In this document: piece after piece, positions 10,085-49,919 of the stretch
Position numbering within the stretch: position 1 is the stretch's first letter
Layout of the letters: each line of letters starts with the position of its first letter
NCBI GenBank assembly: GCA_965116195.1
Contig: OZ220491.1
Span: 1,085,080 to 1,149,079 of the forward strand
From: Acidimicrobiales bacterium
GTDB taxonomy: Bacteria; Actinomycetota; Acidimicrobiia; Acidimicrobiales; Aldehydirespiratoraceae
DNA length: 64,000 nt
Direction: 5' to 3'
Notes under the pieces: model-generated
What the model was told of the DNA's origin: nothing
Database searches by the model: none
Seen by the model: the letters and a program-made list of their open reading frames with translations, nothing else
Position numbers and translations under genes: made by a program

Positions 10085-10262
10085 CGTGAGGCGGCACTTC
10101 GTGGGCAGATGCATGACATCGTGTTGCTGTCGCAAGATGCAACAATGAGCAGCGCATTGTGAGGCGCATCATCAAGGGACACGAGTTCCAACAAGCGGCC
10201 AGTCGCAAGATGCAACAATGAGCAGCGCATTGTGAGACGGCACTTCGTGGGCAGCGCTTCGT
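10085..10262. repeat. 73-bp mosaic tandem repeat x ~2.4 ending on the GTG start of the arylsulfatase gene
   Basis: TCGCAAGATGCAACAATGAGCAGCGCATTGTGAG occurs at 10130 and 10203. GGCACTTCGTGGGCAG occurs at 10093 and 10239 (146 = 2 x 73). CTTCGTG is reused at the start codon 10261. Confidence 0.8.
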
Positions 10263-12876
10263 GACTGATCCCACCGGGGCCTACGCGGGCTTCGGGGGCA
10301 CCGTCGGCAAGGTCTTTTCCGCCTCCGAGCCTGATTGGCCGGTACCGCCCACGGCTCCTGATGGTGCTCCCAATGTGATCGTGATGATGGCTGATGACCT
10401 CGGCTATTCCGATCTGGGCTGCTATGGCTCCGAGATCAACACTCCCGAACTTGACCGGCTCGCCTCAGAAGGGTTGCGTTACACCGACTTTCATGTCAAT
10501 CCCATGTGCTCACCCACCCGGGCGTCTTTGCTGACCGGACTCAATCATCACATGGCTGGCATGGCAACTGTTCCTCACAGCGACCCCGGCTTTCCCGGCT
10601 ATGCCCACGAGTTGCGCGAGAACACGGTCACCATGGCCGAGGTGTTGCGTGATGCGGGCTGGGCCACTTTCATGGTGGGCAAGTGGCATCTCACCAAGGA
10701 TGCTCACCTCAGCGACGGTGCTCCCAAGTCGAGTTGGCCTCTGCAACGGGGCTTTGATCGCTATTACGGGATTTTGGATGCTTTCACCAACTTTCATCAG
10801 CCTCATCGTCTTTACGAGGACAACCACCACCTCAACGTTGATCAATACCCCGATGACTATTACTTCACTGATGATCTGACCGATCAGGCTTTGCGAATGG
10901 TTGATGAACTGCGGTCATCGCATCCGACCCGACCGTTTTTCATGTACTTCTCTCATGGGGCTGTGCATGCTCCGCTGCAGGCACCTGCAACGGATATTGA
11001 ACTGTTCCGGGGTCGCTATGACGCGGGCTGGGATGTGTTGAGAGCCGAGCGCTTCCAGCGTCAGAGGCAGTTGGGTGTGGTGCCTCCTCACGCTGTGCTG
11101 CCGCCGCGCAACGCCGAGGAGTTGCACGAGGCCGGTGCCTGGGATGATCTTGATGCTCGCTCCAGAGAGTTGTTTGCCCGCTATATGGAGGTGTACGCGG
11201 GCATGGTTCACAATGTTGATCGCAACTTCGGTCGCCTGCGCCGACATCTTGAAGCCGTCGGCGAGTGGGACAACACGATTGTGCTGTTCACCAGTGACAA
11301 CGGCGGCTCCCGTGAGGGTCAGTACACCGGTACCTCCGCGTATTTCCGAACTCTGCTCACGCAGGTGCGCTCGACGGGTCTGGAAGATGTGGCTGTTGAC
11401 CACGAGCGTATTGACATGCTGGGTGGCCCGCGTGCGTTGGCTCATTATCCGATGGGTTGGGCGATGGTGTCATGCACACCGTTCCGGCTCTACAAGATCA
11501 ACACTCACCGGGGTGGTCACAGTGTGCCCTTCATCCTGCACTGGCCGGCACGCTTCGAAGCCGGAACTGGAGTTGGGGTTGGTGCCGCAGCCGGAGTTGG
11601 GGGTGGTGCCGCAGCCGCAACGGGAGTTGAAGATGGTGCCAGAACCCAAGCCGGAGTTGTTGCCGTAGTTGGTGTGCAAGCCGGACCTGGAACTGGAGTT
11701 GAAGTTGGTGCCGGAGCAGTAGTTGAAGCCGACGTTGGAGTTGGAGCGGCAGCCGGAACTGGAGTTGAAGGTGGTGCCAGAACCCAAGCTGGAGTTGTAG
11801 TGGGTGGCCAAGCCGAAACTGGAACAGGAACCGTAGTCGGAGAGGTAGTCGGCGACGGTTCGTTGGCTGGGGGGATACGTACCCAGTACCAACATGTGAC
11901 CGACGTGTTGCCGACCGTGTGTGAGTTGGTTGGCGTGGCAGTGCCGCGTACCCGTCACGGTGTGGCTGTGCCAGAGCCGGCCGGGGCCAGTTTTGCGATG
12001 ACCCTGCACGATGCCACCGCGCCCTCCACCCATCCCGAGCAGTACTACGAGATGATCGGGCATCGTGGCTATTACCGTGATGGTTGGTCTATCGTCACCT
12101 GTCACCGGCCACGCCGGGCTTTCAGCGACGATCACTGGGAGTTGCACAACCTCGCCGATGACCCGACCGAGTCGGTGGACCTGGCTTCTGAATATCCGGA
12201 CAAACTCCAGGAACTTGAGCAGGCCTGGGACGCGGCGGCCTGGGCCAATCAGGTTTACCCGTTGGATGAGGGCAATTCGCTCAAGATGATCCTGCGGCCT
12301 CCGTGGTATCAACAGTGGGCAGCCGAGACGAAGTTGCGGCCTGGAACGCCCACCCTGGAGCGTTGGCGATCCCAGCAGCTGATCTTTCAGAAGAATTTTG
12401 ATGTTGATGTGGCATTGCGTTGGCGGCCCGGTGACTGTGGCATGCTCGTGGCCCATGGCGATCAGGGAGGCGGTTATGCGCTGTATGTCGAGGATGACTG
12501 CCTGATGTTTGTCCACAACGCATACGGTGATTTGACCACTGTGAATTGTGGGTTGGTGCCTACGGGTGCCTCGAAGGTGTGTCTGGCGATGGAGAACCCC
12601 GGCAATCTTGTCTGGAACGCACGGCTGAGTGTGGACGGTGAGCCGGTGGGGGAGGCCCGGGGTTTGGTGTCACTGATGGCGATGGCACCTTTTGAGGGCA
12701 TTGATGTGGGGATTGACCGCCGTTCTCCTGTCAGCTGGGATGTCTATGAACGTCACGGCCCCTTTGCCTTTACAGGTGATCTGCACTCGGTTACCTACCG
12801 CCCGGGCGAACTCGCCCCTGATGCCGGTTCGTTGTGGCTCGACTACATTCGTTCCACCGGCACTCGTTACGAGTAG
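10261..12876 (+). CDS. Arylsulfatase (formylglycine-dependent, CSPTR motif) carrying a ~105-aa repetitive insertion
   Basis: 871 aa. VIVMMADDLGYSDLGCYGSE...NPMCSPTRASLLTG. The Gly/Val/Ala-rich insertion is at 11561-11875. Confidence 0.88.
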   Translation: MTDPTGAYAGFGGTVGKVFSASEPDWPVPPTAPDGAPNVIVMMADDLGYSDLGCYGSEINTPELDRLASEGLRYTDFHVNPMCSPTRASLLTGLNHHMAGMATVPHSDPGFPGYAHELRENTVTMAEVLRDAGWATFMVGKWHLTKDAHLSDGAPKSSWPLQRGFDRYYGILDAFTNFHQPHRLYEDNHHLNVDQYPDDYYFTDDLTDQALRMVDELRSSHPTRPFFMYFSHGAVHAPLQAPATDIELFRGRYDAGWDVLRAERFQRQRQLGVVPPHAVLPPRNAEELHEAGAWDDLDARSRELFARYMEVYAGMVHNVDRNFGRLRRHLEAVGEWDNTIVLFTSDNGGSREGQYTGTSAYFRTLLTQVRSTGLEDVAVDHERIDMLGGPRALAHYPMGWAMVSCTPFRLYKINTHRGGHSVPFILHWPARFEAGTGVGVGAAAGVGGGAAAATGVEDGARTQAGVVAVVGVQAGPGTGVEVGAGAVVEADVGVGAAAGTGVEGGARTQAGVVVGGQAETGTGTVVGEVVGDGSLAGGIRTQYQHVTDVLPTVCELVGVAVPRTRHGVAVPEPAGASFAMTLHDATAPSTHPEQYYEMIGHRGYYRDGWSIVTCHRPRRAFSDDHWELHNLADDPTESVDLASEYPDKLQELEQAWDAAAWANQVYPLDEGNSLKMILRPPWYQQWAAETKLRPGTPTLERWRSQQLIFQKNFDVDVALRWRPGDCGMLVAHGDQGGGYALYVEDDCLMFVHNAYGDLTTVNCGLVPTGASKVCLAMENPGNLVWNARLSVDGEPVGEARGLVSLMAMAPFEGIDVGIDRRSPVSWDVYERHGPFAFTGDLHSVTYRPGELAPDAGSLWLDYIRSTGTRYE

Positions 12877-12879
12877 TTG

Positions 12880-13245
12880 CATGTGCGCGGCGTGCAAGTT
12901 GTTGGTCGGTCGGTTGCTCTGCTCGGTGGGGGCCGGACAACCCAGTGACACTTGTGCGCGGCGTGCAAGTTTGTTGGTCGGTCGGTTGCTCTGCTCGGTG
13001 GAAGCGGTGCAACCTGGTGACACTTGTGCGCGGCGTGCAAGTTTGCCCGTCAGTCGGTTGCTGTGCTCGGTGGAAGTGGTGCAACCTGGTGACACTTGTG
13101 CGCGGCGTGCAAGTTTGTTGGTCGGTCGGTTGCTCTGCTCGGTGGGGGCCGGACAACCCAGTGACACTTGTGCGCGGCGTGCAAGTTTGCCCGTCAGTCG
13201 GTTGCTGTGCTCGGTGGAAGTGGCGCAGTTGTCTGCGGCCGAGTC
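12880..13245. repeat. 72-bp tandem repeat x 5 (two alternating variants)
   Basis: CTTGTGCGCGGCGTGCAAGTTT occurs at 12951, 13023, 13095 and 13167, plus a leading copy. This accounts for all the overlapping ORFs between 12670 and 13289. Confidence 0.92.
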
Positions 13246-14635: not shown

Positions 14636-14832
14636 TTCAACATTGGCACCCACATCGTCTCTGTAGTGGTATGTCCTGATGGTTCTTGGTGTCCGGGATC
14701 ATTTGGCCTCGATGATGATGATGCCGTAGCGCTTTCAACATTGGCACCCACATCGTCTCTGTAGTGGTATGTCCTGGTCGTTCTTGGTGTCTGGGATCAT
14801 TTGGCCTCGATGATGATGCCGTAGCGTTGTTG
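14636..14832. repeat. 98-bp tandem repeat x 2 including the last ~12 codons plus stop of the HTH gene
   Basis: TTCAACATTGGCACCCACATCGTCTCTGTAGTGGTATGTCCTG occurs at 14636 and 14734. ATCATTTGGCCTCGATGATGATG appears in both copies. Confidence 0.9.
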
Positions 14833-15210: not shown

Positions 15211-16620
15211 ATGGATTTTGAGCTTGGCGAGGAGCAGCAGGCCATCAAGAGTCTGGCCGCGCAGGTGTTGAGTGATCTGTCTTCACATGAACGGCTGAAG
15301 GCTCTGGCTGCTGAAGCAGATTTTGTGGATCGCAAGGCGTGGGCAGCACTGGCCTCAACGGGTGTCGTGGGTGCCTCGGTGCCTGAGGCCCATGGCGGTC
15401 TGGGGCTGGATTTCCTGGCGACGGCAGTGGCGTTGGAGGAGGTGGGGCGCAGCGCCTCTGTGGTGCCGTTGCTGACAACAGCCGTGATGGGTGCCATGCC
15501 GATAGCAGCCTTCGGCACGCCTGCGCAGCGCCAGCTGTGGCTGCCCGGCATCGCCGATGGTTCGGTACTGGCCTGCGCAGCCTTGGCCGAAGACGGCACC
15601 ACCCCAACAGATCCAACCACAACCGCCCGCGTTGACGTTGACAGCCGCCCTCATGGCGGTCTCGCGGGTGCCGGTGCGGTGGGGTCGTCCACAACGGCTC
15701 ATGCTGACGCTGGCGTTGATGTTCGCAAGGGTATTGCAGATGCTGGTGGAGTGGGGTCGTCCACAACCGTTCGCAATGACACCGATAGTCGTGCATGCCG
15801 GAGTCTCTCGGACGAGGGTGAAGTGGAGTTGCCCACAACCGTCCGCGTTGACGTTGACAGCCGCTCTCGTGGCGGTCTCGCGGGTGCTGGTGAGGTGGGG
15901 TCGTCCACAACTGCCTACTCCGATACTGGTGGAGGGTTCGTGTTGGACGGCACCAAGGTGTTGGTCGCAGGTGGACTTGACGCTGATGTGGCGTTGGTAC
16001 CGGCGCGGTTGGACACGGGTGAGGTGGGCGTGTTTGTGGTGCCGACCAGTGCGACTGGCTTGAGAATCCGGCCGGTGGAGATCACAACGGGACGTTCTGA
16101 GGCTCGTTTCGAGTTGTCAGGAGTGCGTGTGGGCGGGGACGCACTGCTGGGTGCTGGCGCGGTTGACGGCGAGGACATCGTGCAGTTCATTGAGGACAGG
16201 GCCAATGTCGGGCTGTGCATGAAGATGGCGGGAGCGGCAGGAGCGGCCATTGAGTTGGCTGCGGACTACACCAAGCAGCGTCAGCAGTTTGACCGGCCCA
16301 TCGCCACGTTCCAGGCGGTCAGCCAGCGTGCCGGTGACTCCTACATTGATGCCGAGGCCATCTGGTTGACCGCCTACCAGGCCGCCTGGCGCTTGTCAGC
16401 AGGTCTACCTGCCGAGCGCGAGATCGCCATCGCCAAGTACTGGGCCTCAGAAGGTGGGTACCGAGTGGTCCACGCAGCAGTACACGTACACGGCGGGGTG
16501 GGCGTAGACCGCGACTACCCCCTGCACCGGCACTTCCTGGCTGCCCGCCACATCGAACTCACCCTCGGCCACGCCGAAGAGCAGCTAGCCAACCTAGGCC
16601 ACCAAATCGCCTCGTCATGA
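15211..16620 (+). CDS. Acyl-CoA dehydrogenase with ~110-aa repetitive insertion
   Basis: 469 aa. ACAD-like N- and C-terminal parts (FELGEEQQAIKSLA...; YTKQRQQFDRPIATFQAV...). The insertion at 15600-15935 has a 216-bp internal repeat. Confidence 0.85.
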   Translation: MDFELGEEQQAIKSLAAQVLSDLSSHERLKALAAEADFVDRKAWAALASTGVVGASVPEAHGGLGLDFLATAVALEEVGRSASVVPLLTTAVMGAMPIAAFGTPAQRQLWLPGIADGSVLACAALAEDGTTPTDPTTTARVDVDSRPHGGLAGAGAVGSSTTAHADAGVDVRKGIADAGGVGSSTTVRNDTDSRACRSLSDEGEVELPTTVRVDVDSRSRGGLAGAGEVGSSTTAYSDTGGGFVLDGTKVLVAGGLDADVALVPARLDTGEVGVFVVPTSATGLRIRPVEITTGRSEARFELSGVRVGGDALLGAGAVDGEDIVQFIEDRANVGLCMKMAGAAGAAIELAADYTKQRQQFDRPIATFQAVSQRAGDSYIDAEAIWLTAYQAAWRLSAGLPAEREIAIAKYWASEGGYRVVHAAVHVHGGVGVDRDYPLHRHFLAARHIELTLGHAEEQLANLGHQIASS

Positions 16621-16685
16621 CCAATGCTCATGACCATCAACGTTTTGACTTGACAGACGCTGCGATGCTCTGGCAACATCGCTGA

Positions 16686-24689: not shown

Positions 24690-24890
24690 GATCCTCCCAG
24701 GGAGCGGGTGCTAACCACATTGTGCCTCGAACCCCGGAAGCACAGCAATCCTGCTCCCAGGGGGCGAGTGCTAACCACATTGTGCCTCGAACCCCGGCAG
24801 CACAGCAATCCTGCTCCCAGGGGGCGAGTGCTAACCACATTGTGCCTCGAACCCCGGCAGCACAGCAATCCTGCTCCCAGGGGGCGGACT
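24690..24890. repeat. 60-bp tandem repeat x ~3.3
   Basis: GTGCTAACCACATTGTGCCTCGAACCCCGG occurs at 24708, 24768 and 24828. Confidence 0.92.
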
Positions 24891-29015: not shown

Positions 29016-29152
29016 GATGACTCCTGGGGTGTCGGATTGGTCAAGGACCACAGTACACAGGCACACTGACAGCACCCTTGTGACATACGTATCAATACCG
29101 GGTGGCTCTCGCCCATGTGACCGATCAGAAGGTTCGCGTTTGAACCGATCTG

Positions 29153-29340
29153 GTGCGATGGTTGCGGTGTGGCGGTTGGCTGTGCATGTGGTGTAGTTGC
29201 AAGTCGGTGGCAAGGATCATCAAGGGTGCGATGGTTGCGGTGTGGCGGTTGGCTGTGCATGTGGTGTAGTTGCAAGTCAGTGGCAAGGATCATCAAGGGT
29301 GCGATGGTTGCGGTGTAGGGGTTCGCTGTGCACGCTTAGG
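29153..29340. repeat. 73-bp tandem repeat x ~2.6 filling the divergent region between paralog B and trmI
   Basis: GTGCGATGGTTGCGGTG occurs at 29153, 29226 and 29299. Confidence 0.92.
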
Positions 29341-30119: not shown

Positions 30120-30486
30120 GGCTCTCCCACCCAGAACATGTGGGCGCGTCTTGGCGCACTTCACACTGCGGGTCGGCTCAGAGCGCGCGCGGATAGGTGA
30201 CCATCCACCTGCCGTTGTGTCAGCCCGGCTTTGATGTCGGGGGTCACCCGAACAACAACGACATGGTGGAGGTGTCGGTAATCATGGGTGCCTTGGATCC
30301 GGAGGTGGTGGACGCGGTGTGGGCGGTGATGGAACCGCACGTTGAGGTGCGTGAGGCGATGTTTCACCCGTTGGGGTGCCACCTCATCCATAGCTCTCCG
30401 TTGGCTCCGCCCACAGGCGGTGTTTCACCCGTTGGGGTGCCACCGTCCGCGGATCCCGCATCGCAGCGTGTTGGGGTGGAGATTGC

Positions 30487-31603: not shown

Positions 31604-31708
31604 GCGGTGGAAACCGCCCAATCAGTCCGTCAATTCAACTTGGCGGGCTTGGAAAGGCGGCACCCTAGCGAAGCGGTGGAAACCACCCGATCAGTCCGTC
31701 AATTCAAC
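31604..31708. repeat. 36-bp repeat x 2 with a 33-nt spacer (period 69)
   Basis: GCGGTGGAAACC(G/A)CCC(A/G)ATCAGTCCGTCAATTCAAC at 31604 and 31673. Confidence 0.85.
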
Positions 31709-31966: not shown

Positions 31967-32470
31967 ATGGCCGTAACCGATGAACTGCTGTCCAACAATG
32001 CAGGCTATGCCGAGAACTTCGACAAGGGTGAGCTGCCCCTCCCGCCTGCGCTCGGGCTGGCTGTCGTGGCGTGTATGGACGCGCGTCTGGACACGCACGC
32101 GTTGCTCGGCATCAGCGAAGGGGACGCTCACGTGATCCGCAACGCCGGGGGCGTTGTGACCGATGATGTGATCCGTTCCCTGACGATTTCGCAGCGCCTG
32201 CTACAGACCAACTCAGTCATGCTCATCCATCACACGGACTGCGGCATGCTCACCTTCCGCGACGATGATGTGAAGGACTCGATCACCGCCGACACAGGCA
32301 TTCGGCCGACCTTCTCAATGGAAGCGTTCCAAGACCTTGATGACGACATCAGACAGTCGATTGCCCGCATCAAGGCGAGTCCGTTCATCCCGAACAAAGA
32401 CGACATCCGCGGGTTTGTCTACGACTGCGCAACGGGCAGGCTGAACGAGGTCACACAACCAGCGACCTGA
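31967..32470 (+). CDS. Beta-class carbonic anhydrase
   Basis: In-frame part of ORF 31886..32470. AAAGGAG SD. Motifs VVACMDARLD and HHTDCGM (Cys-His-Cys zinc ligands). Confidence 0.9.
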   Translation: MAVTDELLSNNAGYAENFDKGELPLPPALGLAVVACMDARLDTHALLGISEGDAHVIRNAGGVVTDDVIRSLTISQRLLQTNSVMLIHHTDCGMLTFRDDDVKDSITADTGIRPTFSMEAFQDLDDDIRQSIARIKASPFIPNKDDIRGFVYDCATGRLNEVTQPAT

Positions 32471-32992
32471 AGCGCTTGGAACAAGCCACGGCGACTACCG
32501 TTGTTGCTGCGGGTTCAATGAGGTCACACAACCGGCGACTTGGAGCGCTTGGAGCAAGCCACGACGGCTACTGTTGTTGCTGCGGGTTCATTGAGGTCAC
32601 ACAACCGGCGACTTGGAGCGCTTGGAGCAAGCCACGGCGACTACTGTTGTTGCTGCGGGTTCATTGAGGTCATACAACCGGCGACTTGGAGCGCTTGGAG
32701 CAAGCCACGGCGACTACTGTTGTTGCTGCGGGTTCATTGAGGTCATACAACCGGCGACTTGGAGCGCTTGGAGCAAGCCACGGCGACTACTGTTGTTGCT
32801 GCGGGTTCATTGAGGTCATACAACCGGCGACTTGGAGCGCTTGGAGCAAGCCACGGCGACTACTGTTGTTGCTGCGGGTTCATTGAGGTCATACAACCGG
32901 CGACTTGGAGCGCTTGGAGCAAGCCACGGCGACTACTGTTGTTGCTGCGGGTTCATTGAGGTCATACAACCGGCGACCTGGAGCGCTTGGCC
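32447..32992. repeat. 73-bp tandem repeat x 7.5; the first unit is the 3' end (EVTQPAT-stop) of the carbonic anhydrase gene
   Basis: GAGGTCA(C/T)ACAACC occurs at 32447, 32520, 32593, 32666, 32739, 32812, 32885 and 32958. Only the first copy keeps CCTGA (stop); the others read CTTGG. Confidence 0.95.
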
Positions 32993-33223: not shown

Positions 33224-34030
33224 CTACCGGGGTTGGTCCGCGGGGCGGTAGTCGATGTTGCGATCCACGGCCATATAGATGTCGTTACCGATGGGATCGG
33301 CCAGTTCTTCGGCGAGGTGGCCCAGCAGACCTGCGCAGCGTGCCAGTAACGCCACCCCACGGGTCACGCCCAAAGGCAGGCCCACATCGGCGAGAACTGC
33401 CCCGCAGGTACCGGCCCCGTTCAGGGGCAGCTTCCTGGAAAGCACAGCGGGATGGACGCGCCCGATGGCCGCGAACAACTCCAGGTGAGGGCCGAACAGA
33501 TCGTTCCGGCGGGCCAACTTGAACAGTACCGGCGTGCGAGGATCGCCTTGTTTGTGTACCGGGTGTCCCAGGCCAGGCACGAACCGACCCGAGGCTCGGG
33601 TCTCGCTGACGACTTTCGTGGCCAGAGCGTCCCAGCCGTCATCATCGCTGGGCAGCCGGTCACAGCCATCAAGCGCGGTGTGCAGGAAACGAGCCGCGTT
33701 CTCGGTCACTCCCAGAAAGCGGTCACCACCCCCCAACAGACCGGACGCGAGCGCTCCCTGGATCGACTCGGGCGCGCTCAGCAGCGTCACCCTCGCGGCG
33801 ATGGCGGTGGGGGTGAAGCCGTGGTCGGCGAGGGCGACCAGCACAGCCTCAAACATGTTGCGCTGCTGGGGCGTGGGGCGTCGCTTGGCCATGAGCCAGT
33901 AGGCAAGTTCACCAAAGGACACCTGGCCCATGAGTTCATCAGCCAAGCTGTGACCCAGCACGGTGATGCTGTCGGCATCAGAGACACCGAGGCCGGTGCG
34001 GTAGGCGGGGGTTGCGGGAGTCATGGTCAC
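33224..34030 (-). CDS. Citrate synthase-like / citryl-CoA lyase family protein
   Basis: 268 aa. Motifs GLGHPVHKQGDPR and LNGAGTCGAVLADVG. Confidence 0.7.
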   Translation of the reverse strand: MTMTPATPAYRTGLGVSDADSITVLGHSLADELMGQVSFGELAYWLMAKRRPTPQQRNMFEAVLVALADHGFTPTAIAARVTLLSAPESIQGALASGLLGGGDRFLGVTENAARFLHTALDGCDRLPSDDDGWDALATKVVSETRASGRFVPGLGHPVHKQGDPRTPVLFKLARRNDLFGPHLELFAAIGRVHPAVLSRKLPLNGAGTCGAVLADVGLPLGVTRGVALLARCAGLLGHLAEELADPIGNDIYMAVDRNIDYRPADQPR

Positions 34031-34245
34031 AGCCCGCTTCGATAGGCAAGGGTTGTGGTGGTCATGGTCATGAGCCTGTTGCTGTGGGCGGGGTTTGTGG
34101 GAGTCATGGTCACAGCCCGCTTCGATAGGCAGGGGTTGTGGTGGTCATGGTCATGAGCCTGTTGCTGTGGGCGGGGTTTGTGGGAGTCATGGTCACAAAG
34201 CCCGTTGCAGTAGGCAGGAACCTGTCGGTGATCGTCAGTCACTCT
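34018..34245. repeat. 83-bp tandem repeat x ~2.7 copying the start codon and first ~12 codons of the citryl-CoA lyase-like gene
   Basis: GAGTCATGGTCAC occurs at 34018, 34101 and 34184. Confidence 0.92.
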
Positions 34246-38357: not shown

Positions 38358-38700
38358 GGCGCAACAGAGTTCCCGCAACTTGTCAGGGCGAGGGACGAAG
38401 GCATGACAACCAGCAAGTGGGGTCTGCTTGGGCGCGACAAAGCTCCGGCAATTTGTCAGGGTGAGGGTTCTGAGTGCGTTGGCTGGCTTTCTGGGAATAG
38501 AGGGCGCAACAGAGTTCCCGCAACTTGTCAGGGCGAGGGACGAAGGCATGACAACCAGCAAGTGGGGTCTGCTTGGGCACTACAAAGTTCCCGCAATTTG
38601 TCAGGGTGAGGGTTCTGAGTGCGTTGGCTGGCTTTCTGGGAATAGAGGGCGCAACAGAGTTCCGGCAACTGTCAGGCTGAGGGCCGAGGGCCTCAGGCCG
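38358..38700. repeat. 145-bp tandem repeat x ~2.3 (internally two ~72-bp half-units); the last copy runs into the 3' end of the intradiol dioxygenase gene
   Basis: GGCGCAACAGAGTTCC occurs at 38358, 38503 and 38648. The half-unit CCGCAACTTGTCAGGGCGAGGG / CGGCAATTTGTCAGGGTGAGGG is offset by 72. Confidence 0.9.
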
Positions 38701-39590: not shown

Positions 39591-40739
39591 TCAACCCTCA
39601 ACACCCGGGCCGACGAGCCTTCGTCGTACCGGAAAGAACTGCACCGGCCAGTACCTCTGGAGCAGTCCATAGATCCCTTTCGGAGCCAGGACTGCCATGA
39701 CCGCCGCGATCAGGCCAAGAATGATGAAGCGCCACTCGTCAGCATCTTCAAGCAGTTCACGTAAGAACCAGTAAACGCCCACTCCGATGATCGGGCCGGT
39801 GGTGGAACCGACGCCACCGATGATGGCGATGAACACCACCAGGGCGGTCCAGCGCAGCACACTGAAAGAAGAGTCGGCGCGTGCTGACGGGTTCTGCAGC
39901 AGTATCACCGCGCCGGTCATGCCGGTCCAGAAGGCCGCGAGCACCCAGACGGCCAACTTGGCCCGAGTCACCGACACGCCCAGACCCCGGGCACCTTCCT
40001 GACTGTCACGTATGGAGCGCAGAGCCAGACCCAGCCGTGACCGCAGCACCAGGACAACAATGGCCGTGGCCCCGGCAGCCAACCCGAGTGCCATCAGATA
40101 TGTGACGGTGTTGCGGGTGTCCAGGGAGTATCCGCCCAGCGATTCACGGGTCATGCTGCGGACATTTGAGCCTCCCAGAAAGTCACTCTCCAATGTGATC
40201 AGACGGAAGACCTCGGCGATCACCCAGGTACCGATGGCGAAGTAGCCGCCCCGCAGACGGAATGCCAAAGCTGCCACCGGCAGTGACAAGACGGCAGCAA
40301 CCACGCCTGCGAGCAGCACCGAGAGGTACGGGTCCACGCCGAAGTCCTCGGCGAAACTGAGCAGCGTGTAGACCCCGATGCCCACGAACATCTGCTGTCC
40401 GATTGTGACCAGACCGGCGAAACCGGCCAGCAGGTTCCACATCTGCGCCAGGGCCAGGTAGTAGAGGATCGTCACCAGTGGCACACGCAGACTGCCGTCG
40501 CTGTCCCACCACGGCAACAGGAACAGAAGCACGAACAACCCGCCAAACACGAACAATCCGACGGTGGATGGTCGGTCTGAGCGGGTGATGCGATGCTCGG
40601 CTATCTGAGGCTCGGTCATCTGATGTTCGGTCAGTTGATGCTCGTTCCCTTGATGTTCGGCCAGTTGATGCTCGTTCCTTTGATGCCCGGTCAACTGATG
40701 CTCGTTCCCTTGATGCCCGGTCATCTGATGTTCGGTCAT
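39591..40739 (-). CDS. Branched-chain-amino-acid-type (Liv) ABC transporter permease, LivM-like, with N-terminal decapeptide repeats
   Basis: 382 aa. ATGA overlap with the upstream permease stop. The multi-TM body is preceded by an (E/G)HQ-rich 30-bp repeat region. Confidence 0.85.
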   Translation of the reverse strand: MTEHQMTGHQGNEHQLTGHQRNEHQLAEHQGNEHQLTEHQMTEPQIAEHRITRSDRPSTVGLFVFGGLFVLLFLLPWWDSDGSLRVPLVTILYYLALAQMWNLLAGFAGLVTIGQQMFVGIGVYTLLSFAEDFGVDPYLSVLLAGVVAAVLSLPVAALAFRLRGGYFAIGTWVIAEVFRLITLESDFLGGSNVRSMTRESLGGYSLDTRNTVTYLMALGLAAGATAIVVLVLRSRLGLALRSIRDSQEGARGLGVSVTRAKLAVWVLAAFWTGMTGAVILLQNPSARADSSFSVLRWTALVVFIAIIGGVGSTTGPIIGVGVYWFLRELLEDADEWRFIILGLIAAVMAVLAPKGIYGLLQRYWPVQFFPVRRRLVGPGVEG

Positions 40740-41614
40740 TGCTGTCTGCGGCCCATCAGTCCGGTGGGCTTGGTGGCGAGCACCACAAGAAACAAGAGAT
40801 GGCCGAGCAGAGGCCCGGAGCCGAAGCCGTAGCTGACCTCCAACTGTCCTCCGACGGTATGGGCCACACCCAGAAGCAGGCCACCCGCCAGGGTGCCCCA
40901 GATCGATCCGAGCCCACCGATGACCACCGCCTCAAAGGCATACAGCAACTGCGCAGGTCCGTCGAGTGGTCCGAAGCTCTGCCGGATCCCCAGAAAAACG
41001 CCGGCTATGGCCACGGTGGCGAAGGCGATACCCATGGCCACTGCGTAGAGGTTGCGGTCGTTGATCCCCATCAGTCGGGCGGTCAACGGGTCATCCGACA
41101 CGGCACGGAAGGCTCGGCCCAGTGCCGTGCGTGACAGCATCAACTGAAGCCCGAGCAGCACTGTCACAGCCACAGCCAGGGTGATGAGCGGAATCCAGCC
41201 GACCGCGATGGCATCGGTGATCCTGATGCTCTCAACCTCGATTGCGCCCGCGTCAAGCCCCCGTGAGTCGGCGCTGTAGGTCTCCAACAGCGCGTTCTGC
41301 ACAACGATTCCCAACCCGAACGTCACCAGGATGGAAGGCAGGGGGTCGGCACCGATGGTGAAATTGAAGGCACCGAGTTGCAGCGCGTATCCGGTGGCCA
41401 GCATCAGCGGCACGACCACCACCAGTGACACGAACGGATTGAGACCGAGCCACGAGGTGACCGACACCGACACGAAAGCGCCCAGGACGGCCAAGTCTCC
41501 ATGGGCCAGGTTCACGAAGCGCATCACCCCGAAGGCGAGCGAGAGGCCTGTGGCGAACAGCGCGAACAGTCCTCCGAGCAGTACTCCCTGCACGATGGCG
41601 TTGAGCCACTCCAT
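40736..41614 (-). CDS. Liv-type ABC transporter permease, LivH-like
   Basis: Part of ORF 40736..41875. Start MEWLNAIVQGVLLGGLFALFATGLSLAFGVM. The start overlaps the stop of the upstream ATPase ORF (TGATG). Confidence 0.85.
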   Translation of the reverse strand: MEWLNAIVQGVLLGGLFALFATGLSLAFGVMRFVNLAHGDLAVLGAFVSVSVTSWLGLNPFVSLVVVVPLMLATGYALQLGAFNFTIGADPLPSILVTFGLGIVVQNALLETYSADSRGLDAGAIEVESIRITDAIAVGWIPLITLAVAVTVLLGLQLMLSRTALGRAFRAVSDDPLTARLMGINDRNLYAVAMGIAFATVAIAGVFLGIRQSFGPLDGPAQLLYAFEAVVIGGLGSIWGTLAGGLLLGVAHTVGGQLEVSYGFGSGPLLGHLLFLVVLATKPTGLMGRRQQ

Positions 41615-42486
41615 CAGATTTGATCCCAGGGAGTATGCCGAGACTGCTGAGTTCGGTGAACTGCTGAGCCGGTTGAGTCGGCCAAAAGTGCCGAGCCTGC
41701 TGAGTCGCCCAATTCGGCTGAGTCGGCCAAGTCGGCTGAGTCGGCCAAGTCGGCAACGCTGGTCGTGACAGCGGAGTTGTTCCCGGCAGGCAGTCCGAAG
41801 TAGGCGGCGGTGATGTCTGAGCGTTCCAGGTTCTGGGGACGACCTTCCAGGGTGATCCGTCCCTCCAGCATGCACACCACCCGGTCAGCTACCGCCATGG
41901 CCTGCCCTATGTCCTGCTCAACCAGCAAAATGGTGGCACCGGCTTCCGACAGTGCGGGCAGTGCTCCGTAAAGTGACTTGACAACCACCGGCGCAAGCCC
42001 CAGAGAGACCTCGTCAAGCAGGATCAGCCGAGGATTGGACATGAGTGCTCGGCCGATGGCGACTGCCTGCTGTTCGCCTCCCGACAGGACATGGGACTGA
42101 CGGTTCAGCAGCGGTTGTATCAAGGGAAACACGTCAAGCACGGAATCAAGGCTCCAGCCACCCGGGCGGCTGCAGTGGCTGCCGATAATCAGGTTCTCGC
42201 GCACGGTCAGGCTTCCGAAGAGCATGCGACCTTCGGGAACCAGGGCGATCCCCAGCCCGACACGCCGGTAAGCCTTGACGCGGCCGATGTCAGTGCCGTC
42301 GAAGGTGATTTCCCCGGCTCTGATGCGTACCTGTCCGGCCAGTGCGCGCAAAAAGGTGGTCTTGCCCGCACCGTTGGCACCGATCATGGCCAGCGTCTCA
42401 CCTTCAGCAACGCTCACATCAATTCCGAACAGGGCCTGGAAGTCGCCGTAGCCCGCGTCCAGACCGCGCGCCGCCAGCAGCGTCAT
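41614..42486 (-). CDS. Liv-type ABC transporter ATP-binding protein, LivF-like, with a repeat-derived ~50-aa C-terminal tail
   Basis: Part of ORF 41614..42549. MTLLAARGLDAGYGDFQALFGIDVSVAEGETLAMIGANGAGKTT (Walker A), LSGGEQQ, LLDE. An alternative GTG start is at 42549. Confidence 0.85.
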   Translation of the reverse strand: MTLLAARGLDAGYGDFQALFGIDVSVAEGETLAMIGANGAGKTTFLRALAGQVRIRAGEITFDGTDIGRVKAYRRVGLGIALVPEGRMLFGSLTVRENLIIGSHCSRPGGWSLDSVLDVFPLIQPLLNRQSHVLSGGEQQAVAIGRALMSNPRLILLDEVSLGLAPVVVKSLYGALPALSEAGATILLVEQDIGQAMAVADRVVCMLEGRITLEGRPQNLERSDITAAYFGLPAGNNSAVTTSVADLADSADLADSAELGDSAGSALLADSTGSAVHRTQQSRHTPWDQI

Positions 42487-42559
42487 TCCGGTGCCATCCC
42501 CGAAAAGACCCTTGTGGCACACCGAGGGATGTTGAGGCCGATGTTGCACGGCAGCAGCG

Positions 42560-43288
42560 TCATTCTGGTGCCACCCCCAGATAGACCTCCTGCACCTCGG
42601 CGCTGGCCATCACGGTCGTCGGGTCGCCCTCAGCGATCTTGATGCCGAAACTCATGGCCATGATCTTGCTGACCACTGCCAAAAGGGCATGCACGATGTG
42701 TTCAATCCAGACGATGGTCACACCGTCAGCATGGATGTCGCCGATGGTGGTGACCAACTCAAGCACCTCGGCTTCGGTCAGGCCTCCGGCGATCTCGTCA
42801 AGCAAAAGTATCTTGGGACGCGTCGCCAGCGCCCGCGCCAACTCCATGCGCTTGCGACCCAGCAGGGGCAGCGCGCCGGCAGTGGTGTTGGCAGCCTCCA
42901 ACAACCGGGCCCGCTCAAGAGCCTCCACTGCCACAGGGGTTGCGTTGGTTTCTGACATGGGCGTACCCGCGCCGAAGACCGCTCCCACCAGGACATTCTC
43001 AAACACGGTCATGCCCTCAAAGGGTCGAGGAACTTGTGACGTTCGGGCCAGACCACGCCGACAGCGCCAGTCAGCCGATGTCTTTGTCACATCTTCGCCC
43101 TCGATGAGGATTGAGCCGCGGTCACAGCTCAGATCGCCTGCAACAAGGTTGAGCAGGGTTGTCTTGCCGGCCCCGTTGGGCCCCACGATGCCAAGCGCGT
43201 CACCCTGCTTGACCTTGAAGGACAGGTTGTCCACGACCTTCACGCCGAAGGACTTGTCAACTCCGGCCACCTCCAGCAGCGGGGTCAT
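42560..43288 (-). CDS. Liv-type ABC transporter ATP-binding protein, LivG-like
   Basis: 242 aa. GPNGAGKTT, and LELARALATRPKILLLDEIAGGL (signature region plus Walker B). Confidence 0.88.
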   Translation of the reverse strand: MTPLLEVAGVDKSFGVKVVDNLSFKVKQGDALGIVGPNGAGKTTLLNLVAGDLSCDRGSILIEGEDVTKTSADWRCRRGLARTSQVPRPFEGMTVFENVLVGAVFGAGTPMSETNATPVAVEALERARLLEAANTTAGALPLLGRKRMELARALATRPKILLLDEIAGGLTEAEVLELVTTIGDIHADGVTIVWIEHIVHALLAVVSKIMAMSFGIKIAEGDPTTVMASAEVQEVYLGVAPE

Positions 43289-47807: not shown

Positions 47808-49208
47808 ATGACTGAGCATCGGGCGCAGGCGCTGACAGGAGAGGCCAGCGGGTACTCGCACGATTGTCGGCGCTGTTGCAATCGGGCGCAGGCGCTGATA
47901 GGAGAGGCCCTTGCCGAGCGGGTGACGCGCCTCGGCCACACCCTCCAGGCGAGCGGCGTGGCGGTCACTGTTGCCGAGATCATTGACGCCTCTGCGGCGG
48001 CGACCTACGTGGAGCTGGGCTCTCGCGAGGAGTTTCGAGCAGCCCTGAAGGCCACCCTTGTCAAGAGCGAGCGCCATCTGGCCGTCTTTGATGCTGTCTT
48101 TGACCGGCTGTTTCCGCTCAGCGGGACCGTTGGTGCCGGTGTTGCTGCACCCACCGCTGGGGACGCGGCGAGCGTCATTGCCCATGACGGCGACACGGCG
48201 GCGCTGGCAGCACGTCTGGTGGATGAGCACGGAGGTTTTGAGGGTGTGATGCGAGGTGAGCAACACCATCTTCAGCGTGTGCTGCGTGCCGCTGACCTGG
48301 CTCGGCTGATGAGCGATGCCCGCAAGACAAACCCGGAGTTGACGGCTGTGGAACTGCGGGAGCGCATTGAACGCCTCAAGCAACTCATGGCAGCCGAGGT
48401 GCGCTACCGCCTGGGGGAATCCTGCGACTCCGGTGTCACCGGTGACACCGACCAAGCCGCAGATGACACGGCGGTGCAGGACATCGAGTTTCTGAACGCC
48501 AGTCGAAGCCAGCTCGAGGAAATACGTGAGTCTGTCAGACCTCTGGCCCGAAGGCTTGCGGCGCGCCTGGCTCGGCGCAAACAATCCCGTCGTGGTCGCA
48601 ACGTCAACTTCCGCCGCACGGCCCGCTGGTCTCTCGCCACCGGTGGTACGCCGATTGATGTGGCCTACCAGCGAGCGCGCTTGCACAGGCCGGACCTGTA
48701 TGTGCTCTGTGACATCTCGGGCTCGGTGGCGCACTTCTCGGTGTTCACGCTGACGCTGATGTCCGCGCTCTCTGCTGAGGTGGCCAGGTGCCGTTCATTT
48801 GTGTTCGTTGATGCCGTTGACGAGGTCACCGGTCTGCTCGCCGCCACCGGCCACGGCATTGAACCCTGGCAGATCATGCGCAACACCAACGTGATCGCGG
48901 CTGACGGACACTCCGACTACGGAGCGGTACTGAACCAGTTCTGGGACGAGATCGGTGACCGGGAACTGCGACCCAACTCAACACTGTTGATCACGGGTGA
49001 TGCCCGAACGAACTACCGCGAGACGAGGGCCTCAACTCTTGAGGCGATCTCCGGTCGATGTCGCGCCGTGTACTGGTTGAATCCCGAGCCCCGCCAGGAC
49101 TGGGACACCCACGACTCAGAGATGAGCACCTATGCGCAGCACTGCACAGCTACGTTTGAGGTGCGAACGGTGCGACAGCTTGTCAGCTGTGTGGAAGAAC
49201 TGCTCTGA
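47808..49208 (+). CDS. vWA domain protein, CoxE-like
   Basis: 466 aa. MIDAS-type VLCDISGSVAHFS and LLITGDARTN. The start is uncertain because the first ~35 codons lie in a 63-bp duplication (ATCGGGCGCAGGCGCTGA(C/T)AGGAGAGGCC at 47818 and 47881). Confidence 0.75.
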   Translation: MTEHRAQALTGEASGYSHDCRRCCNRAQALIGEALAERVTRLGHTLQASGVAVTVAEIIDASAAATYVELGSREEFRAALKATLVKSERHLAVFDAVFDRLFPLSGTVGAGVAAPTAGDAASVIAHDGDTAALAARLVDEHGGFEGVMRGEQHHLQRVLRAADLARLMSDARKTNPELTAVELRERIERLKQLMAAEVRYRLGESCDSGVTGDTDQAADDTAVQDIEFLNASRSQLEEIRESVRPLARRLAARLARRKQSRRGRNVNFRRTARWSLATGGTPIDVAYQRARLHRPDLYVLCDISGSVAHFSVFTLTLMSALSAEVARCRSFVFVDAVDEVTGLLAATGHGIEPWQIMRNTNVIAADGHSDYGAVLNQFWDEIGDRELRPNSTLLITGDARTNYRETRASTLEAISGRCRAVYWLNPEPRQDWDTHDSEMSTYAQHCTATFEVRTVRQLVSCVEELL

Positions 49209-49241
49209 GCCGCTGGTTGCCCGGATCACAGGCTTGCAGGC

Positions 49242-49475
49242 TCACACTTCGATGAAGATGCACTCTCCAGGGCACTCTTCAGCCGATTCGATCACGGCCT
49301 CCTCCTGACCTGCGGGCACGGCTGCCAGACCCTCGGGTCCGCCGGGTTCCGAGAACACCTTGCCATCCTCAACGACATAGGCGAGACCGTCATCAAGCAG
49401 GGTGAACACATCGGGGGCGATCTCTTCGCACAGGCCGTCACCGGTGCACAAGTCCTGATCTATCCAGACCTTCAT
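49242..49475 (-). CDS. Small single-cluster ferredoxin
   Basis: 77 aa. MKVWIDQDLCTGDGLCEEIAPDVF...ECPGECIFIE. Confidence 0.85.
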   Translation of the reverse strand: MKVWIDQDLCTGDGLCEEIAPDVFTLLDDGLAYVVEDGKVFSEPGGPEGLAAVPAGQEEAVIESAEECPGECIFIEV

Positions 49476-49919
49476 CGTGTGGCTGTACCTCTCTTATCAG
49501 GGCAGGTCTCTCAGCGGGCCCGTTGGCTGCGTGGTGTCTGCGTGGGTTGGGATTGAGGGTTTGTGGGTCAGGGCCTGCCGAGTGAACTTCGACTGCGGGA
49601 CAGCATAGCGAGGTGCAACGAGGACCGGACGGGCAATCTCGGACGAATTTGTTTCTGGGAGACCCGCCCCGTCGGGCAGAGGTACTTTACAGGGATTATG
49701 CAAGCGAGACAGATGCTGCGAGACCTGCCCTGTCGTTCAGTGGCCCCAGCGCAGCCAAGATCGCACCGCAGGCGACGGCGGCGACAACCGATTTGCGCCC
49801 ATGACTGACACGTTGTCGGGTTCGTTGGTGTCGGCTGCCACGAGACCGATGGCGGCGACAACCGATTTGCCCCCACGATTGACAGTCTCAGCGCTTCCAT
49901 CGGCATAAGGTAGAAGAGT

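What the first reader, a model, noticed from the sequence alone, without database searches (positions are those of the whole stretch)
10085..49900. Six repeat arrays with different unit sequences share a 72-74 bp period
Periods measured directly:
- 73 at 10130/10203.
- 72 at 12951/13023/13095/13167.
- 73 at 29153/29226/29299.
- 73 for eight copies from 32447.
- 145 with a 72-bp half-unit at 38358.
- 74 at 49777/49851.

Other arrays fall at 57, 60, 61, 61-63, 63, 66, 66, 66/77, 69, 77 and 83 bp.

The units show no obvious overall similarity. One 11-mer, ATCATCAAGGG, is shared by the 10130 and 29153 units. A common length without a common sequence suggests a length-determining mechanism. About 73 bp is roughly seven helical turns, which could reflect a protein footprint, a slippage constraint or a template length. 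That last point is inference only.
Basis: partly seen in the sequence, partly recalled or inferred. Interest (0 to 1): 0.6.

Follow-up and report, generated by a model that had tools for sequence, protein, structure and literature searches.

The report
Locally born minisatellites at gene ends
The gaps between genes of this uncultured Acidimicrobiia bacterium are crowded with unrelated tandem repeats, and their periods of about 61-66 and 72-74 bp trace back to small insertions that add about 35 bp of new DNA and duplicate the adjacent 28-38 bp, a geometry I know otherwise only from CRISPR spacer integration.

Summary
Four are solid: periods 72, 73, 73 and 145 (= 73 + 72). The pairs at 10130 and 49777 are only 35-38-bp direct repeats spaced 73 and 74 bp apart.

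The units share no sequence, fold, promoter or terminator. As a bare histogram peak, 72-74 bp is not significant (scan statistic P 0.04-0.56) and shows no 10.5-bp phasing.

The anatomy is still non-random. Most loci are "R-S-R": a 26-39-bp copy of local sequence (R), often a gene's start, stop or ribosome-binding site. It is followed by a 31-38-bp segment unrelated to anything nearby (S), then R again.

- Two-copy loci hold about 1.5 copies.
- Multi-copy arrays mostly end in a partial unit of roughly R length.
- R of about 28-30 gives periods of 61-63. R of about 36-38 gives 72-74.

One founder event is seen directly. Relative L005 carries a 73-bp insertion (35 new + 38 duplicated) that its 92-96%-identical relative L001 lacks.

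Syntenic spacers measure 9-110 bp in most relatives. Non-coding close repeats are about 36-fold denser here than in 2.47 Mb of related genomes.

My best reading is insertion-duplication founders later amplified by unequal recombination. The enzyme is unidentified. A Cas1-Cas2-like integrase acting off-target is the leading, unproven candidate.

The parts
10086..10260 (.). Locus A, upstream of the sulfatase start (GTG 10261). A 38-bp repeat R (GTCGCAAG...GTGAGGCG) lies at 10129-10166 and 10202-10239, around an unrelated 35-bp segment at 10167-10201 (period 73). It is nested in an older, decayed pair of about 36 + 37 bp that begins with the 23-mer GTGAGGCGGCACTTCGTGGGCAG, found at 10086 and 10232.
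12882..13220 (.). Array B: period 72, 4.7 copies, starting 6 bp after the stop of the sulfatase ORF. Two unit variants plus a hybrid unit give a 216-bp higher-order period, the pattern expected from unequal crossover.
29152..29332 (.). Array C: period 73, 2.48 copies (R about 35-36, S about 37-38). It ends 10 bp before the TrmI start codon at 29343.
32436..32990 (.). Array D: period 73, 7.5 copies. Each unit begins with a copy of the last 8 codons of the beta-carbonic-anhydrase gene. Only the first unit keeps the stop codon. The array ends in a 33-bp partial unit.
38358..38691 (.). Array E: a 37-bp core R (84% alike between copies) alternates with two unrelated segments of 36 and 35 bp, giving a 145-bp unit present 2.3 times. 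It lies between convergent genes and ends 1 bp before the dioxygenase stop. The same spacer is 9-110 bp in relatives.
49773..49884 (.). Locus F: a 34-38-bp direct repeat (GGCGGCGACAACCGATTTGC...) spaced 74 bp, around an unrelated 36-40-bp segment.
49921..50272 (+). Locus P, upstream of the ARC ATPase gene. Six copies of its 27-28-bp ribosome-binding-site region (GTCCGCCCCCGATGCGCAGGAGGTGAC) are spaced 63, 75, 62, 61 and 61 bp, with five mutually unrelated segments of 33-48 bp between them. Copies decay with distance from the gene. Relatives carry a single copy.
6320..6487 (.). Locus H: a 31-bp R covering the last codons and the stop of the 3-hydroxyisobutyrate dehydrogenase gene, plus a 35-bp S (period 66). 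It was amplified, and one unit was lengthened to 77 bp by an 11-bp indel.
3867..3975 (.). R-S-R pair, 37 + 35 = 72 bp (R copies 86% alike).
8597..8699 (.). R-S-R pair, 38 + 27 = 65 bp. R carries an ATGAC start-like motif on the minus strand.
30354..30444 (.). R-S-R pair, 30 + 31 = 61 bp, upstream of the trypsin-like protease gene.
31604..31708 (.). R-S-R pair, 36 + 33 = 69 bp, between the protease and carbonic-anhydrase genes.
42472..42587 (-). Locus T: a 77-bp duplication of the ATGA stop/start junction between two ABC ATPase genes (R 27-39 bp). An insertion of the same net size sits at the same junction in relative L010. More distant relatives have a single junction.
47818..47909 (+). R-S-R pair, 29 + 34 = 63 bp, in frame at the 5' end of the VWA/CoxE gene.
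33989..34215 (-). Array K: period 83 (two 41/42-bp sub-units). It is a plain tandem multiplication of the start codon and first 12 or so codons of the citrate-synthase-like gene, with no unrelated segment. Most relatives have a single copy.
40592..40740 (-). About ten in-frame 15-bp copies (higher orders 30 and 60) of the first five codons of an ABC permease gene, at the junction with the upstream permease gene.
24694..24886 (.). Array of period 60, 3.2 copies, between hsdR and the DUF222-HNH gene.
57026..57262 (.). Array of period 66, 3.6 copies, with an internal 15-bp sub-repeat, between two ABC transporter genes.
14636..14818 (.). Plain tandem duplication of 98 bp (1.87 copies), after an acyl-CoA dehydrogenase gene.
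3268..3380 (.). Plain tandem duplication of 57 bp (1.98 copies, 84% alike).

Best explanation
These are minisatellites born in place, not copies of a shared element.

**Shown**
- Each locus is built from local sequence, usually a gene's last codons and stop, its ribosome-binding site and start, or a stop/start junction.
- The basic form is R-S-R. A 26-39-bp piece of local sequence (R) is present twice, around a 31-38-bp segment (S) that matches nothing nearby.
- The period is R + S. R of about 36-38 with S of about 35-37 gives the 72-74 class. R of about 28-31 with S of about 31-35 gives 61-66.
- One such event is caught between two close relatives: 35 new bp plus a 38-bp duplicate.

**Inferred**
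- Founders arise by an insertion that makes a long target-site duplication. Two ends of a short, stiff DNA fragment would join the target about one fragment-length apart, which would explain why R is about equal to S.
- Unequal recombination or slippage between the two R copies then multiplies (R + S), giving arrays that end in a partial unit of length R.
- Only insertions whose R overlaps a gene end or lies in a spacer survive selection.
- The enzyme is not identified. The only known machinery with this geometry is the CRISPR adaptation integrase (Cas1-Cas2) acting at non-CRISPR sites.

Ordinary slippage also operates in this lineage. It explains the plain arrays of 14-42, 57 and 98 bp.
For: **Local origin**
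- Array K repeats the citrate-synthase-like gene's start region, which is single in relatives.
- Array D starts with the carbonic-anhydrase gene's last 8 codons.
- Locus H covers a stop codon.
- Locus P repeats the ARC ribosome-binding-site region, single in relatives L001, L003, L005, L081 and others.
- Locus T duplicates an ATGA gene junction.

**Geometry**
- Objective extension gives 37+35, 31+35, 38+35, 30+31, 36+33, 37+36, 39+38, 29+34, 38+36, 28+33 and 26+36.
- S falls in 31-38 bp in 11 of 16 two-copy loci (P = 2e-6). R/period is about 0.5 in 10-12 of 16 (P = 4e-4).

**S is not a decayed copy of a flank**
- z-scores of S against either flank run from -1.6 to +1.7 in 12 loci, including loci whose R copies are 96-100% identical.

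**Founder event**
- L005 16972-17044 is 35 bp of novel DNA plus a 38-bp duplicate. It is absent from L001 (92-96% identical), L004 and L009.

**Repeated events at one site**
- Locus P has five different S segments, and its two youngest R copies differ by one base.

**Amplification**
- Arrays C, D, K and E have fractional copy numbers of 0.42-0.6.
- Array B contains a hybrid unit and a 216-bp higher-order period.

**Lineage-specific**
- The same spacers are 9-110 bp in most relatives, against 204-1727 bp here.
- Non-coding close repeats are about 36-fold denser than in the background.

**No shared element or structure**
-.
Against: - The R and S statistics are post hoc, come from about 16-20 loci, and have boundaries uncertain by a few bases.
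- R varies from 26 to 39 bp, more than one fixed ruler would allow.
- Some arrays do not fit R-S-R. Array B's fractional copy is 0.71, the 60-bp array's is 0.22, and array K and the 15-bp array have no S at all.
- Plain two-copy duplications coexist (57 and 98 bp here, and L112 in a relative).
- For older loci such as T, the middle segment shows faint resemblance to the upstream gene's 3' end. Decay of a plain duplication cannot be excluded there.
- No source was found for any S segment in the window, 160 loci, phage records, plasmid records or IMG/VR.
- No cas1 or cas2 gene and no canonical CRISPR array was found in the window or in any fetched locus.
- Only 2% of the genome could be examined.
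Confidence: 0.5

Rival explanations
1. Ordinary slipped-strand or unequal-crossover tandem duplication at gene boundaries, followed by uneven decay. Parts carrying a stop codon, ribosome-binding site or start codon stay conserved and the rest randomises. On this view the 72-74 cluster is a small-sample fluctuation inside a broad 57-83-bp band.
For: - The sharp peak is not significant.
- Plain duplications exist in the same window: 57 bp at 1.98 copies, 98 bp at 1.87 copies, array K, and the 15-, 21- and 26-bp arrays.
- At junction T the conserved core is exactly the stop/RBS/start overlap, and the middle segment faintly resembles the upstream gene's end.
- In relative L112 a 73-bp pair does have S related to its flank (z = 5.4).
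Against: - Young loci have R copies 96-100% identical but S unrelated to either flank: A, L005, N, Q and P copies 3-4.
- The L005 event is an insertion of new sequence relative to a 92-96%-identical genome.
- Decay cannot explain the tight S length or the ~1.5-copy rule.
- Locus P has five different S segments at one site.
Confidence: 0.3
2. The arrays are functional, for example rows of protein-binding sites, promoters or small upstream ORFs, with spacing set by a protein footprint or by helical phase.
For: - Cores often include ribosome-binding-site or start-like motifs.
- Cores are better conserved than the segments between them.
- An RNA polymerase footprint of about 60-75 bp lies in the same range (my own knowledge, not tested).
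Against: - No promoter or terminator consensus lies inside the arrays in 28-40 kb.
- No unit folds better than its shuffles (z from -1.3 to +1.1).
- There is no Rfam match and no 10-11-bp phasing.
- Cores are unrelated between loci.
- Arrays D and E lie between convergent genes.
- All of these features are absent from relatives that keep the same genes.
Confidence: 0.07
3. The units are diverged copies of one dispersed element of the MIRU, REP or MITE kind.
For: - They lie between genes of an actinobacterium, as MIRUs do.
- Relatives do carry a dispersed hairpin-like element.
Against: - The all-against-all comparison of 19 units on both strands found only the two halves of array E to be related. 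Other best matches are 10-11-mers.
- Units are visibly derived from the adjacent genes.
Confidence: 0.02
4. The arrays are assembly or polishing artefacts of a long-read metagenome assembly.
For: The nearest genomes are long-read metagenome assemblies. The window's own genome could not be retrieved to check read support.
Against: - Arrays carry structured unit variants, hybrids and decay gradients.
- In-gene repeats keep the reading frame: periods 15, 21, 24, 27, 63, 66 and 216.
- Sister assemblies from the same kind of data lack the arrays.
- Similar events occur in two other independent genomes, L005 and L010.
Confidence: 0.03

Closest known systems
Off-target ('neo-CRISPR') spacer integration by Cas1-Cas2. 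This is Nivala, Shipman and Church 2018, which I could not read. I rely on its summaries in 10.1101/148544, PMC6698737 and PMC7054753.
   Same: - A spacer-sized insert (about 33-36 bp) sits between two copies of a repeat-sized piece (about 28 or 37 bp) of ordinary genomic DNA.
- Repeated additions occur at one site, as at locus P.
- Older copies are degenerate.
[quoted passage not shown] Variable duplication length at sites lacking those motifs is therefore plausible; that last step is my inference.
   Different: - No cas genes or resident CRISPR array could be shown.
- No protospacer was found.
- The density (about 14 loci in 64 kb) is far above anything I know to be reported.
- Many loci were amplified afterwards with the same insert.
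- Duplication lengths spread over 26-39 bp.
Canonical CRISPR arrays
   Same: - Repeat and spacer lengths, and periods of 61-75 bp.
- Locus P (six 27-28-bp repeats, five unique 33-48-bp spacers) would probably be called by a CRISPR finder.
   Different: - Every locus has its own repeat, derived from neighbouring genes.
- There is no palindromic repeat core, no leader and no cas neighbourhood.
- Arrays C and D repeat one identical 'spacer'.
Mycobacterial MIRU / ETR / QUB minisatellites (VNTR loci). Described from my own knowledge of Supply et al. and of Frothingham and Meeker-O'Connell.
   Same: - Actinobacterial intergenic tandem repeats of about 50-110 bp.
- Some overlap the stop and start codons of flanking genes.
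- Copy number changes by slippage or recombination.
   Different: - MIRUs share a consensus sequence, and these do not.
- Density here is roughly ten-fold higher or more.
- An R-S-R origin has not, to my knowledge, been described for them.
Generic bacterial tandem duplication by slipped-strand mispairing
   Same: - This explains the plain arrays here: 14-26 bp, 41.5 bp, 57 bp and 98 bp, and the in-frame coding repeats.
- It also explains the later amplification of the founders.
   Different: It creates whole copies of contiguous sequence. It does not explain unrelated middle segments of constant length.
Target-site duplication by transposases or casposases
   Same: A staggered attack on the two strands, then fill-in, duplicates local sequence on both sides of an insert.
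   Different: - Known duplications are 2-15 bp and flank a kilobase-scale element of constant sequence.
- Here the duplication is 26-39 bp and the insert is a different ~35-bp sequence each time.

Membership tests
CRISPR array | Direct repeats of about 23-47 bp separated by unique spacers of similar, uniform length | tested here: inconclusive
   Met at locus P (six repeats, five unrelated segments), A, E and F. Not met at C and D, where the 'spacer' is the same in every unit.
CRISPR array | One repeat sequence shared by the arrays of a system | tested here: not met
   Repeats differ at every locus. The all-against-all comparison found no relation between them.
CRISPR array | cas genes or a leader next to the array, or at least in the genome | tested here: not met
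   No Cas family turned up among the window's ORFs in Pfam or PADLOC, apart from a weak Cas4-like PD-(D/E)XK nuclease at 2095-3069 (E = 3e-6). No canonical array was found in the window or in 160 loci. The rest of the genome could not be examined.
CRISPR array | Spacers match mobile genetic elements | tested here: inconclusive
   No match in phage records, plasmid records, seven exact-pattern scans of IMG/VR or the local sequence held. The organism's own viruses are probably not sampled.
Neo-CRISPR (off-target spacer integration) | The duplicated 'repeat' is ordinary local genomic sequence | tested here: met
   Relatives carry the same sequence as a single copy at K, P, T and the L005 site.
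Neo-CRISPR (off-target spacer integration) | The insert is new DNA of spacer length | tested here: met
   L005 has 35 bp absent from L001. In the window S is 31-38 bp in 11 of 16 two-copy loci and is unrelated to the flanks.
Neo-CRISPR (off-target spacer integration) | An active Cas1-Cas2 in the same genome, with matching repeat and spacer lengths | not testable with these tools
   The 3,445,870-bp chromosome is known only through one identical protein record. It could not be fetched.
MIRU-type minisatellite | Tandem 40-100-bp units between genes of an actinobacterium, with ends overlapping flanking stop or start codons | tested here: met
   Loci D, H, T, K and P overlap stops, starts or ribosome-binding sites.
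MIRU-type minisatellite | A consensus sequence shared among loci | tested here: not met
Slipped-strand tandem duplication | Whole contiguous copies, so the segment between two cores is homologous to a flank | tested here: not met
   Not met in 12 R-S-R loci. Met for the 57- and 98-bp duplications, array K and the 15-bp array, so both kinds coexist.
REP / MITE dispersed element | Similar copies at many loci, with terminal inverted repeats or a stable hairpin | tested here: not met
   No inter-locus similarity. No unit folds better than its shuffles.

The most novel reading that the evidence does not exclude
In this Acidimicrobiia lineage a short-DNA integrase has repeatedly inserted fragments of about 33-36 bp at non-CRISPR sites across the chromosome. 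The most likely candidate is the CRISPR adaptation complex Cas1-Cas2 acting without a leader or cognate repeat. Each event duplicates about one fragment-length of target. Survivors cluster at gene ends, and recombination between the duplicates then turns them into minisatellites. If the window is typical of the genome, this would be natural 'neo-CRISPR' formation at roughly one locus per 4-5 kb. It would also be a previously unrecognised way for bacterial minisatellites to arise.
Probability: 0.3. Interest if true: 0.9.

Novelty: new variant of a known kind. Interest (0 to 1): 0.72.

Why it matters
- Bacterial minisatellites are normally attributed to slippage, and the reason for their typical unit lengths has not been settled. 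This window offers a concrete, testable origin: an insertion with a long target-site duplication, whose size sets the period.
- If Cas1-Cas2 is responsible, it would show that off-target spacer integration happens at scale in nature. It would also show that it remodels intergenic regions, including ribosome-binding sites, start codons and gene junctions, and can seed new repeat-spacer arrays from ordinary DNA. That bears on how CRISPR arrays arise.
- If another enzyme is responsible, it is an unknown integrase activity.
- Either way, the lineage is a natural system for watching minisatellite birth. Founder, amplified and decayed stages sit side by side in one 64-kb window, and a dated founder event exists in a relative.

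Tried and rejected
**Hypotheses tested and dropped**
- **Shared element.** An all-against-all alignment of 19 units on both strands found nothing beyond the two halves of array E.
- **Structured RNA or hairpin.** No unit folded better than its shuffles. Rfam gave only a tRNA.
- **Promoter or terminator arrays.** None lay inside the arrays in 28-40 kb.
- **Helical phasing or a sharp 72-74 peak.** Neither was significant.
- **Truncated carbonic-anhydrase gene disrupted by array D.** Rejected. The protein is complete, and the array merely starts with its last 8 codons.
- **Locus P as a genuine type I-E CRISPR array.** Rejected. Its repeat is the orthologue of the relatives' ARC ribosome-binding-site region and, by my reading of the sequence, lacks the I-E palindrome.

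**Searches that returned nothing**
- **Source of the inserted segments.** No match in the window and 160 loci, phage records, plasmid records or seven IMG/VR scans.
- **Retrieving the window's own genome.** An exact look-up of two proteins failed. The cluster look-up gave no accession.
- **CRISPR or cas search.** Nothing in the window or the loci.
- **Relatives' TrmI upstream region.** I compared it with array C to tell R from S. Synteny breaks there, so it was uninformative.

**Heuristics and sources that failed**
- GC3 frame analysis and ORF-cover heuristics discriminated coding from non-coding poorly at this GC content.
- The Nivala 2018 paper itself is not held in the library.

Full report
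**What the window is**

The window is a gene-dense stretch of chromosome at about 60% G+C. It carries a Pup-proteasome cluster (ARC ATPase, Pup-ligase family protein, proteasome subunits), a type I restriction-modification system, ABC transporters and acyl-CoA enzymes.

The closest genomes are uncultured Acidimicrobiia, labelled 'Candidatus Aldehydirespirator' or Acidimicrobiaceae metagenome-assembled genomes. They are about 75-95% identical in protein sequence and largely syntenic from 29 to 47 kb. A protein identical to the window's TrmI is on record from one 3,445,870-bp contig. That genome could not be fetched, so everything below rests on 64 kb plus 160 loci (2.47 Mb) from other genomes.

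**Checking the observation**

TRF and direct reading confirm four arrays: 12882-13220 (period 72, 4.7 copies), 29152-29332 (73, 2.5), 32447-32990 (73, 7.5) and 38358-38691 (145, 2.3, made of 73- and 72-bp halves about 65% alike). The loci at 10130 and 49777 are not arrays. Each is a pair of 34-38-bp direct repeats, spaced 73 and 74 bp, with unrelated sequence between.

The repeats are far beyond chance:
- Five Markov shuffles gave none, against 34 observed.
- Tandem arrays with period of 40 bp or more number 13 in this window and 13 in 1.39 Mb of other loci.
- Close direct repeats whose spacing is not a multiple of three number 17 here and 18 in 2.47 Mb elsewhere, about a 36-fold excess per base.

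Inside supported genes the periods are mostly multiples of three (12, 15, 18, 24, 63, 66, 216), with weak two-copy exceptions of 10 and 16 bp. Between genes they are not constrained this way. That pattern is what selection on real sequence would leave.

The 72-74 peak is weak as a bare histogram feature. A scan statistic gives P = 0.04-0.30 against uniform nulls and 0.37-0.56 against a lognormal fit. No 10, 10.5 or 11-bp phasing is detectable. The broader 57-83-bp band is enriched relative to the background (Fisher P = 0.001).

**What the units are not**

An all-against-all comparison of 19 units on both strands found only the two halves of the 145-bp unit to be related. No unit folds better than its shuffles. 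Rfam finds only a tRNA. No promoter or terminator consensus lies in the arrays between 28 and 40 kb. A shared dispersed element and a structured RNA are therefore excluded at this sensitivity.

**What the units are**

Comparison with relatives shows that the arrays are built from the neighbouring genes' own ends.
- The 83-bp array at 33989-34215 repeats the start codon and first dozen codons of the citrate-synthase-like gene. Relatives L002, L004 and L010 have one copy and an 18-27-bp spacer.
- The eight-copy 73-bp array begins with the last eight codons of a complete beta-carbonic-anhydrase gene. Only the first unit keeps the stop codon.
- The 66/77-bp locus at 6320 repeats the last codons and stop of the 3-hydroxyisobutyrate dehydrogenase gene.
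- The 77-bp pair at 42472 duplicates the ATGA stop/start overlap of two ABC ATPase genes.
- Upstream of the ARC gene, six copies of its 27-28-bp ribosome-binding-site region lie 61-75 bp apart. Every relative examined has one copy.
- Syntenic spacers of 9-110 bp in most relatives measure 204-1727 bp here. The largest also contains the carbonic-anhydrase gene.

**The internal geometry**

Most loci are not plain tandem duplications. They consist of a core R present twice, around a segment S that is unrelated to the other S segments and to both flanks. The z-scores run from -1.6 to +1.7. This holds even where the two R copies are 96-100% identical, so decay cannot be the cause.

With a fixed extension rule, the two-copy loci measure as follows:

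| R + S | Period |
|---|---|
| 37 + 35 | 72 |
| 31 + 35 | 66 |
| 38 + 27 | 65 |
| 38 + 35 | 73 |
| 30 + 31 | 61 |
| 36 + 33 | 69 |
| 37 + 36 | 73 |
| 39 + 38 | 77 |
| 29 + 34 | 63 |
| 38 + 36 | 74 |
| 26 + 36 | 62 |
| 28 + 33 | 61 |

- S lies in 31-38 bp in 11 of 16 two-copy loci (binomial P = 2e-6).
- R/period lies near 0.5 in 10-12 of 16 (P = 4e-4). Both tests are post hoc.
- R falls into two groups, 26-31 and 35-39 bp. These give the 61-66 and 72-77-bp periods.
- The multi-copy arrays mostly end in a partial unit of roughly R length: 2.48, 7.45, 2.42 and 4.6 copies. That is what (R+S)n+R predicts.
- Locus A is two nested events of the same size, about 36+37 and then 38+35.

**A founder event seen directly**

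Relative L005 and its 92-96%-identical relative L001 differ by a 73-bp insertion at L005 16972-17044. It consists of 35 bp with no counterpart plus a perfect 38-bp second copy of the adjacent intergenic sequence. L001, L004 and L009 have the single copy.

Both R copies in L005 share six differences from L001, so the event is recent. This is the same 38 + 35 geometry as locus A, in a different genome. L010, the closest relative, has several further insertions at gene junctions, including one of 77 bp at the same ATPase junction as the window.

**How it most likely works**

- *Shown:* the material is local, the structure is R-S-R, S is new, and the sizes are constrained.
- *Inferred:*
  - A founder arises by an insertion that joins the two ends of a short DNA fragment to the two target strands about one fragment-length apart. 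Fill-in then duplicates the target.
  - A 35-bp duplex is stiff, which would explain why R is about equal to S.
  - Unequal recombination or slippage between the R copies then multiplies the unit. The hybrid unit and 216-bp super-period in array B, and the identical inner units of array D, fit this.
  - Only events whose R overlaps a gene end or lies in a spacer leave an intact gene, which explains the location.

The only machinery I know with this geometry is Cas1-Cas2. Off-target integration that creates 'neo-CRISPR' arrays from ordinary DNA has been reported (Nivala et al. 2018, which I know only through 10.1101/148544, PMC6698737 and PMC7054753). [quoted passage not shown] Variable duplication length at foreign sites is therefore conceivable.

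Locus P has five different inserts added next to one core, with older copies decaying. It looks like repeated acquisition at one site.

**Why caution is needed**

- No cas gene or canonical array was found in the window or the loci. The only hint is a weak Cas4-like nuclease.
- No S segment has a match anywhere searched.
- R varies more than a single ruler should allow.
- Plain slippage products are also abundant here: arrays of 14-26 bp, 41.5 bp, 57 bp and 98 bp.
- Older loci such as the ATPase junction could be decayed plain duplications held by selection on the stop/RBS/start.
- The statistics are post hoc on about 16-20 loci.

I put the insertion-duplication anatomy at about 0.5, the Cas1-Cas2 assignment at about 0.3, and plain slippage with a chance cluster at about 0.3 as the main rival.

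**Verdict**

The invariant is not a 73-bp period as such. It is an event that adds about 35 bp and duplicates about 28-38 bp.

The closest known things are neo-CRISPR formation and mycobacterial intergenic minisatellites. The loci fail the membership tests for CRISPR (no common repeat, no cas genes shown) and for MIRU (no consensus). I rate this a new variant of a known kind, of high interest. It is decisively testable with the full genome sequence.

Noticed in passing
window 18689-18707: A run of 19 G lies inside the hsdM methylase gene of the type I restriction-modification system (17579-24260). It could be a phase-variation tract or a homopolymer error of long-read assembly. A second run of 15 G lies at 1889-1903.
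   Followed up: partly
window 16600-29300: This stretch has lower G+C (0.54-0.59). It holds the type I R-M genes, a DUF222-HNH endonuclease (25057-27030) and unannotated ORFs with a 27-bp (9-codon) repeat at 28365-28556. Synteny with relatives breaks just upstream of TrmI, so this looks like an inserted island.
   Followed up: partly
window 31886-32470: A complete beta-carbonic-anhydrase gene sits between the protease and citrate-synthase-like genes. Relatives have only a 29-64-bp spacer there, so the gene is an insertion specific to this lineage. It is flanked by repeats on both sides.
   Followed up: partly
window 2095-3069 (minus strand): A PD-(D/E)XK nuclease with weak similarity to Cas4 and DruK models (PADLOC E = 3e-6). 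It lies next to a tRNA-Leu(TAA) at 4042-4127 and an MT-A70 methyltransferase at 4236-4871.
   Followed up: no
window 62067-63871: An AbiEi/AbiEii toxin-antitoxin pair lies directly after the proteasome subunit genes, in a stretch of lower G+C (0.53).
   Followed up: no
window 15617-15911: The acyl-CoA dehydrogenase gene 15211-16620 contains a 216-bp (72-codon) in-frame internal duplication. This explains its extra length between the N-terminal and middle domains.
   Followed up: partly
window 10261-12876 and 11470-12516 (minus strand): The sulfatase ORF runs about 435 codons past its Pfam domain, through a region of 24/30/66-bp repeats. A 348-codon ORF on the opposite strand would encode a GTxFNSG-like repeat and has the better third-position G+C. 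Which of the two is the real gene there is unresolved.
   Followed up: partly
L001 ~9100-9300; L006 and L007 ~11190-11370; L094 1-167: Relatives carry a dispersed intergenic element of about 80-190 bp (…CCCGAGCGGCCCGT…AGCGAACAAGAGCGGG…CCTATCCGC…). It is present as a perfect 80-bp tandem pair in L094. I did not see it in the window's orthologous spacers.
   Followed up: no
L010 13835-13940: The closest relative has a plain 36-bp tandem repeat (about 2.6 copies) directly upstream of its TrmI gene. That is the same position as the window's 73-bp array C, but no convincing sequence relation was seen.
   Followed up: partly
window 49242-49475 (minus strand): A 77-codon ORF lies in a stretch whose DNA is 83-87% conserved with L001, L003 and L005. 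Its position next to the ARC gene is also conserved. No function is assigned.
   Followed up: no
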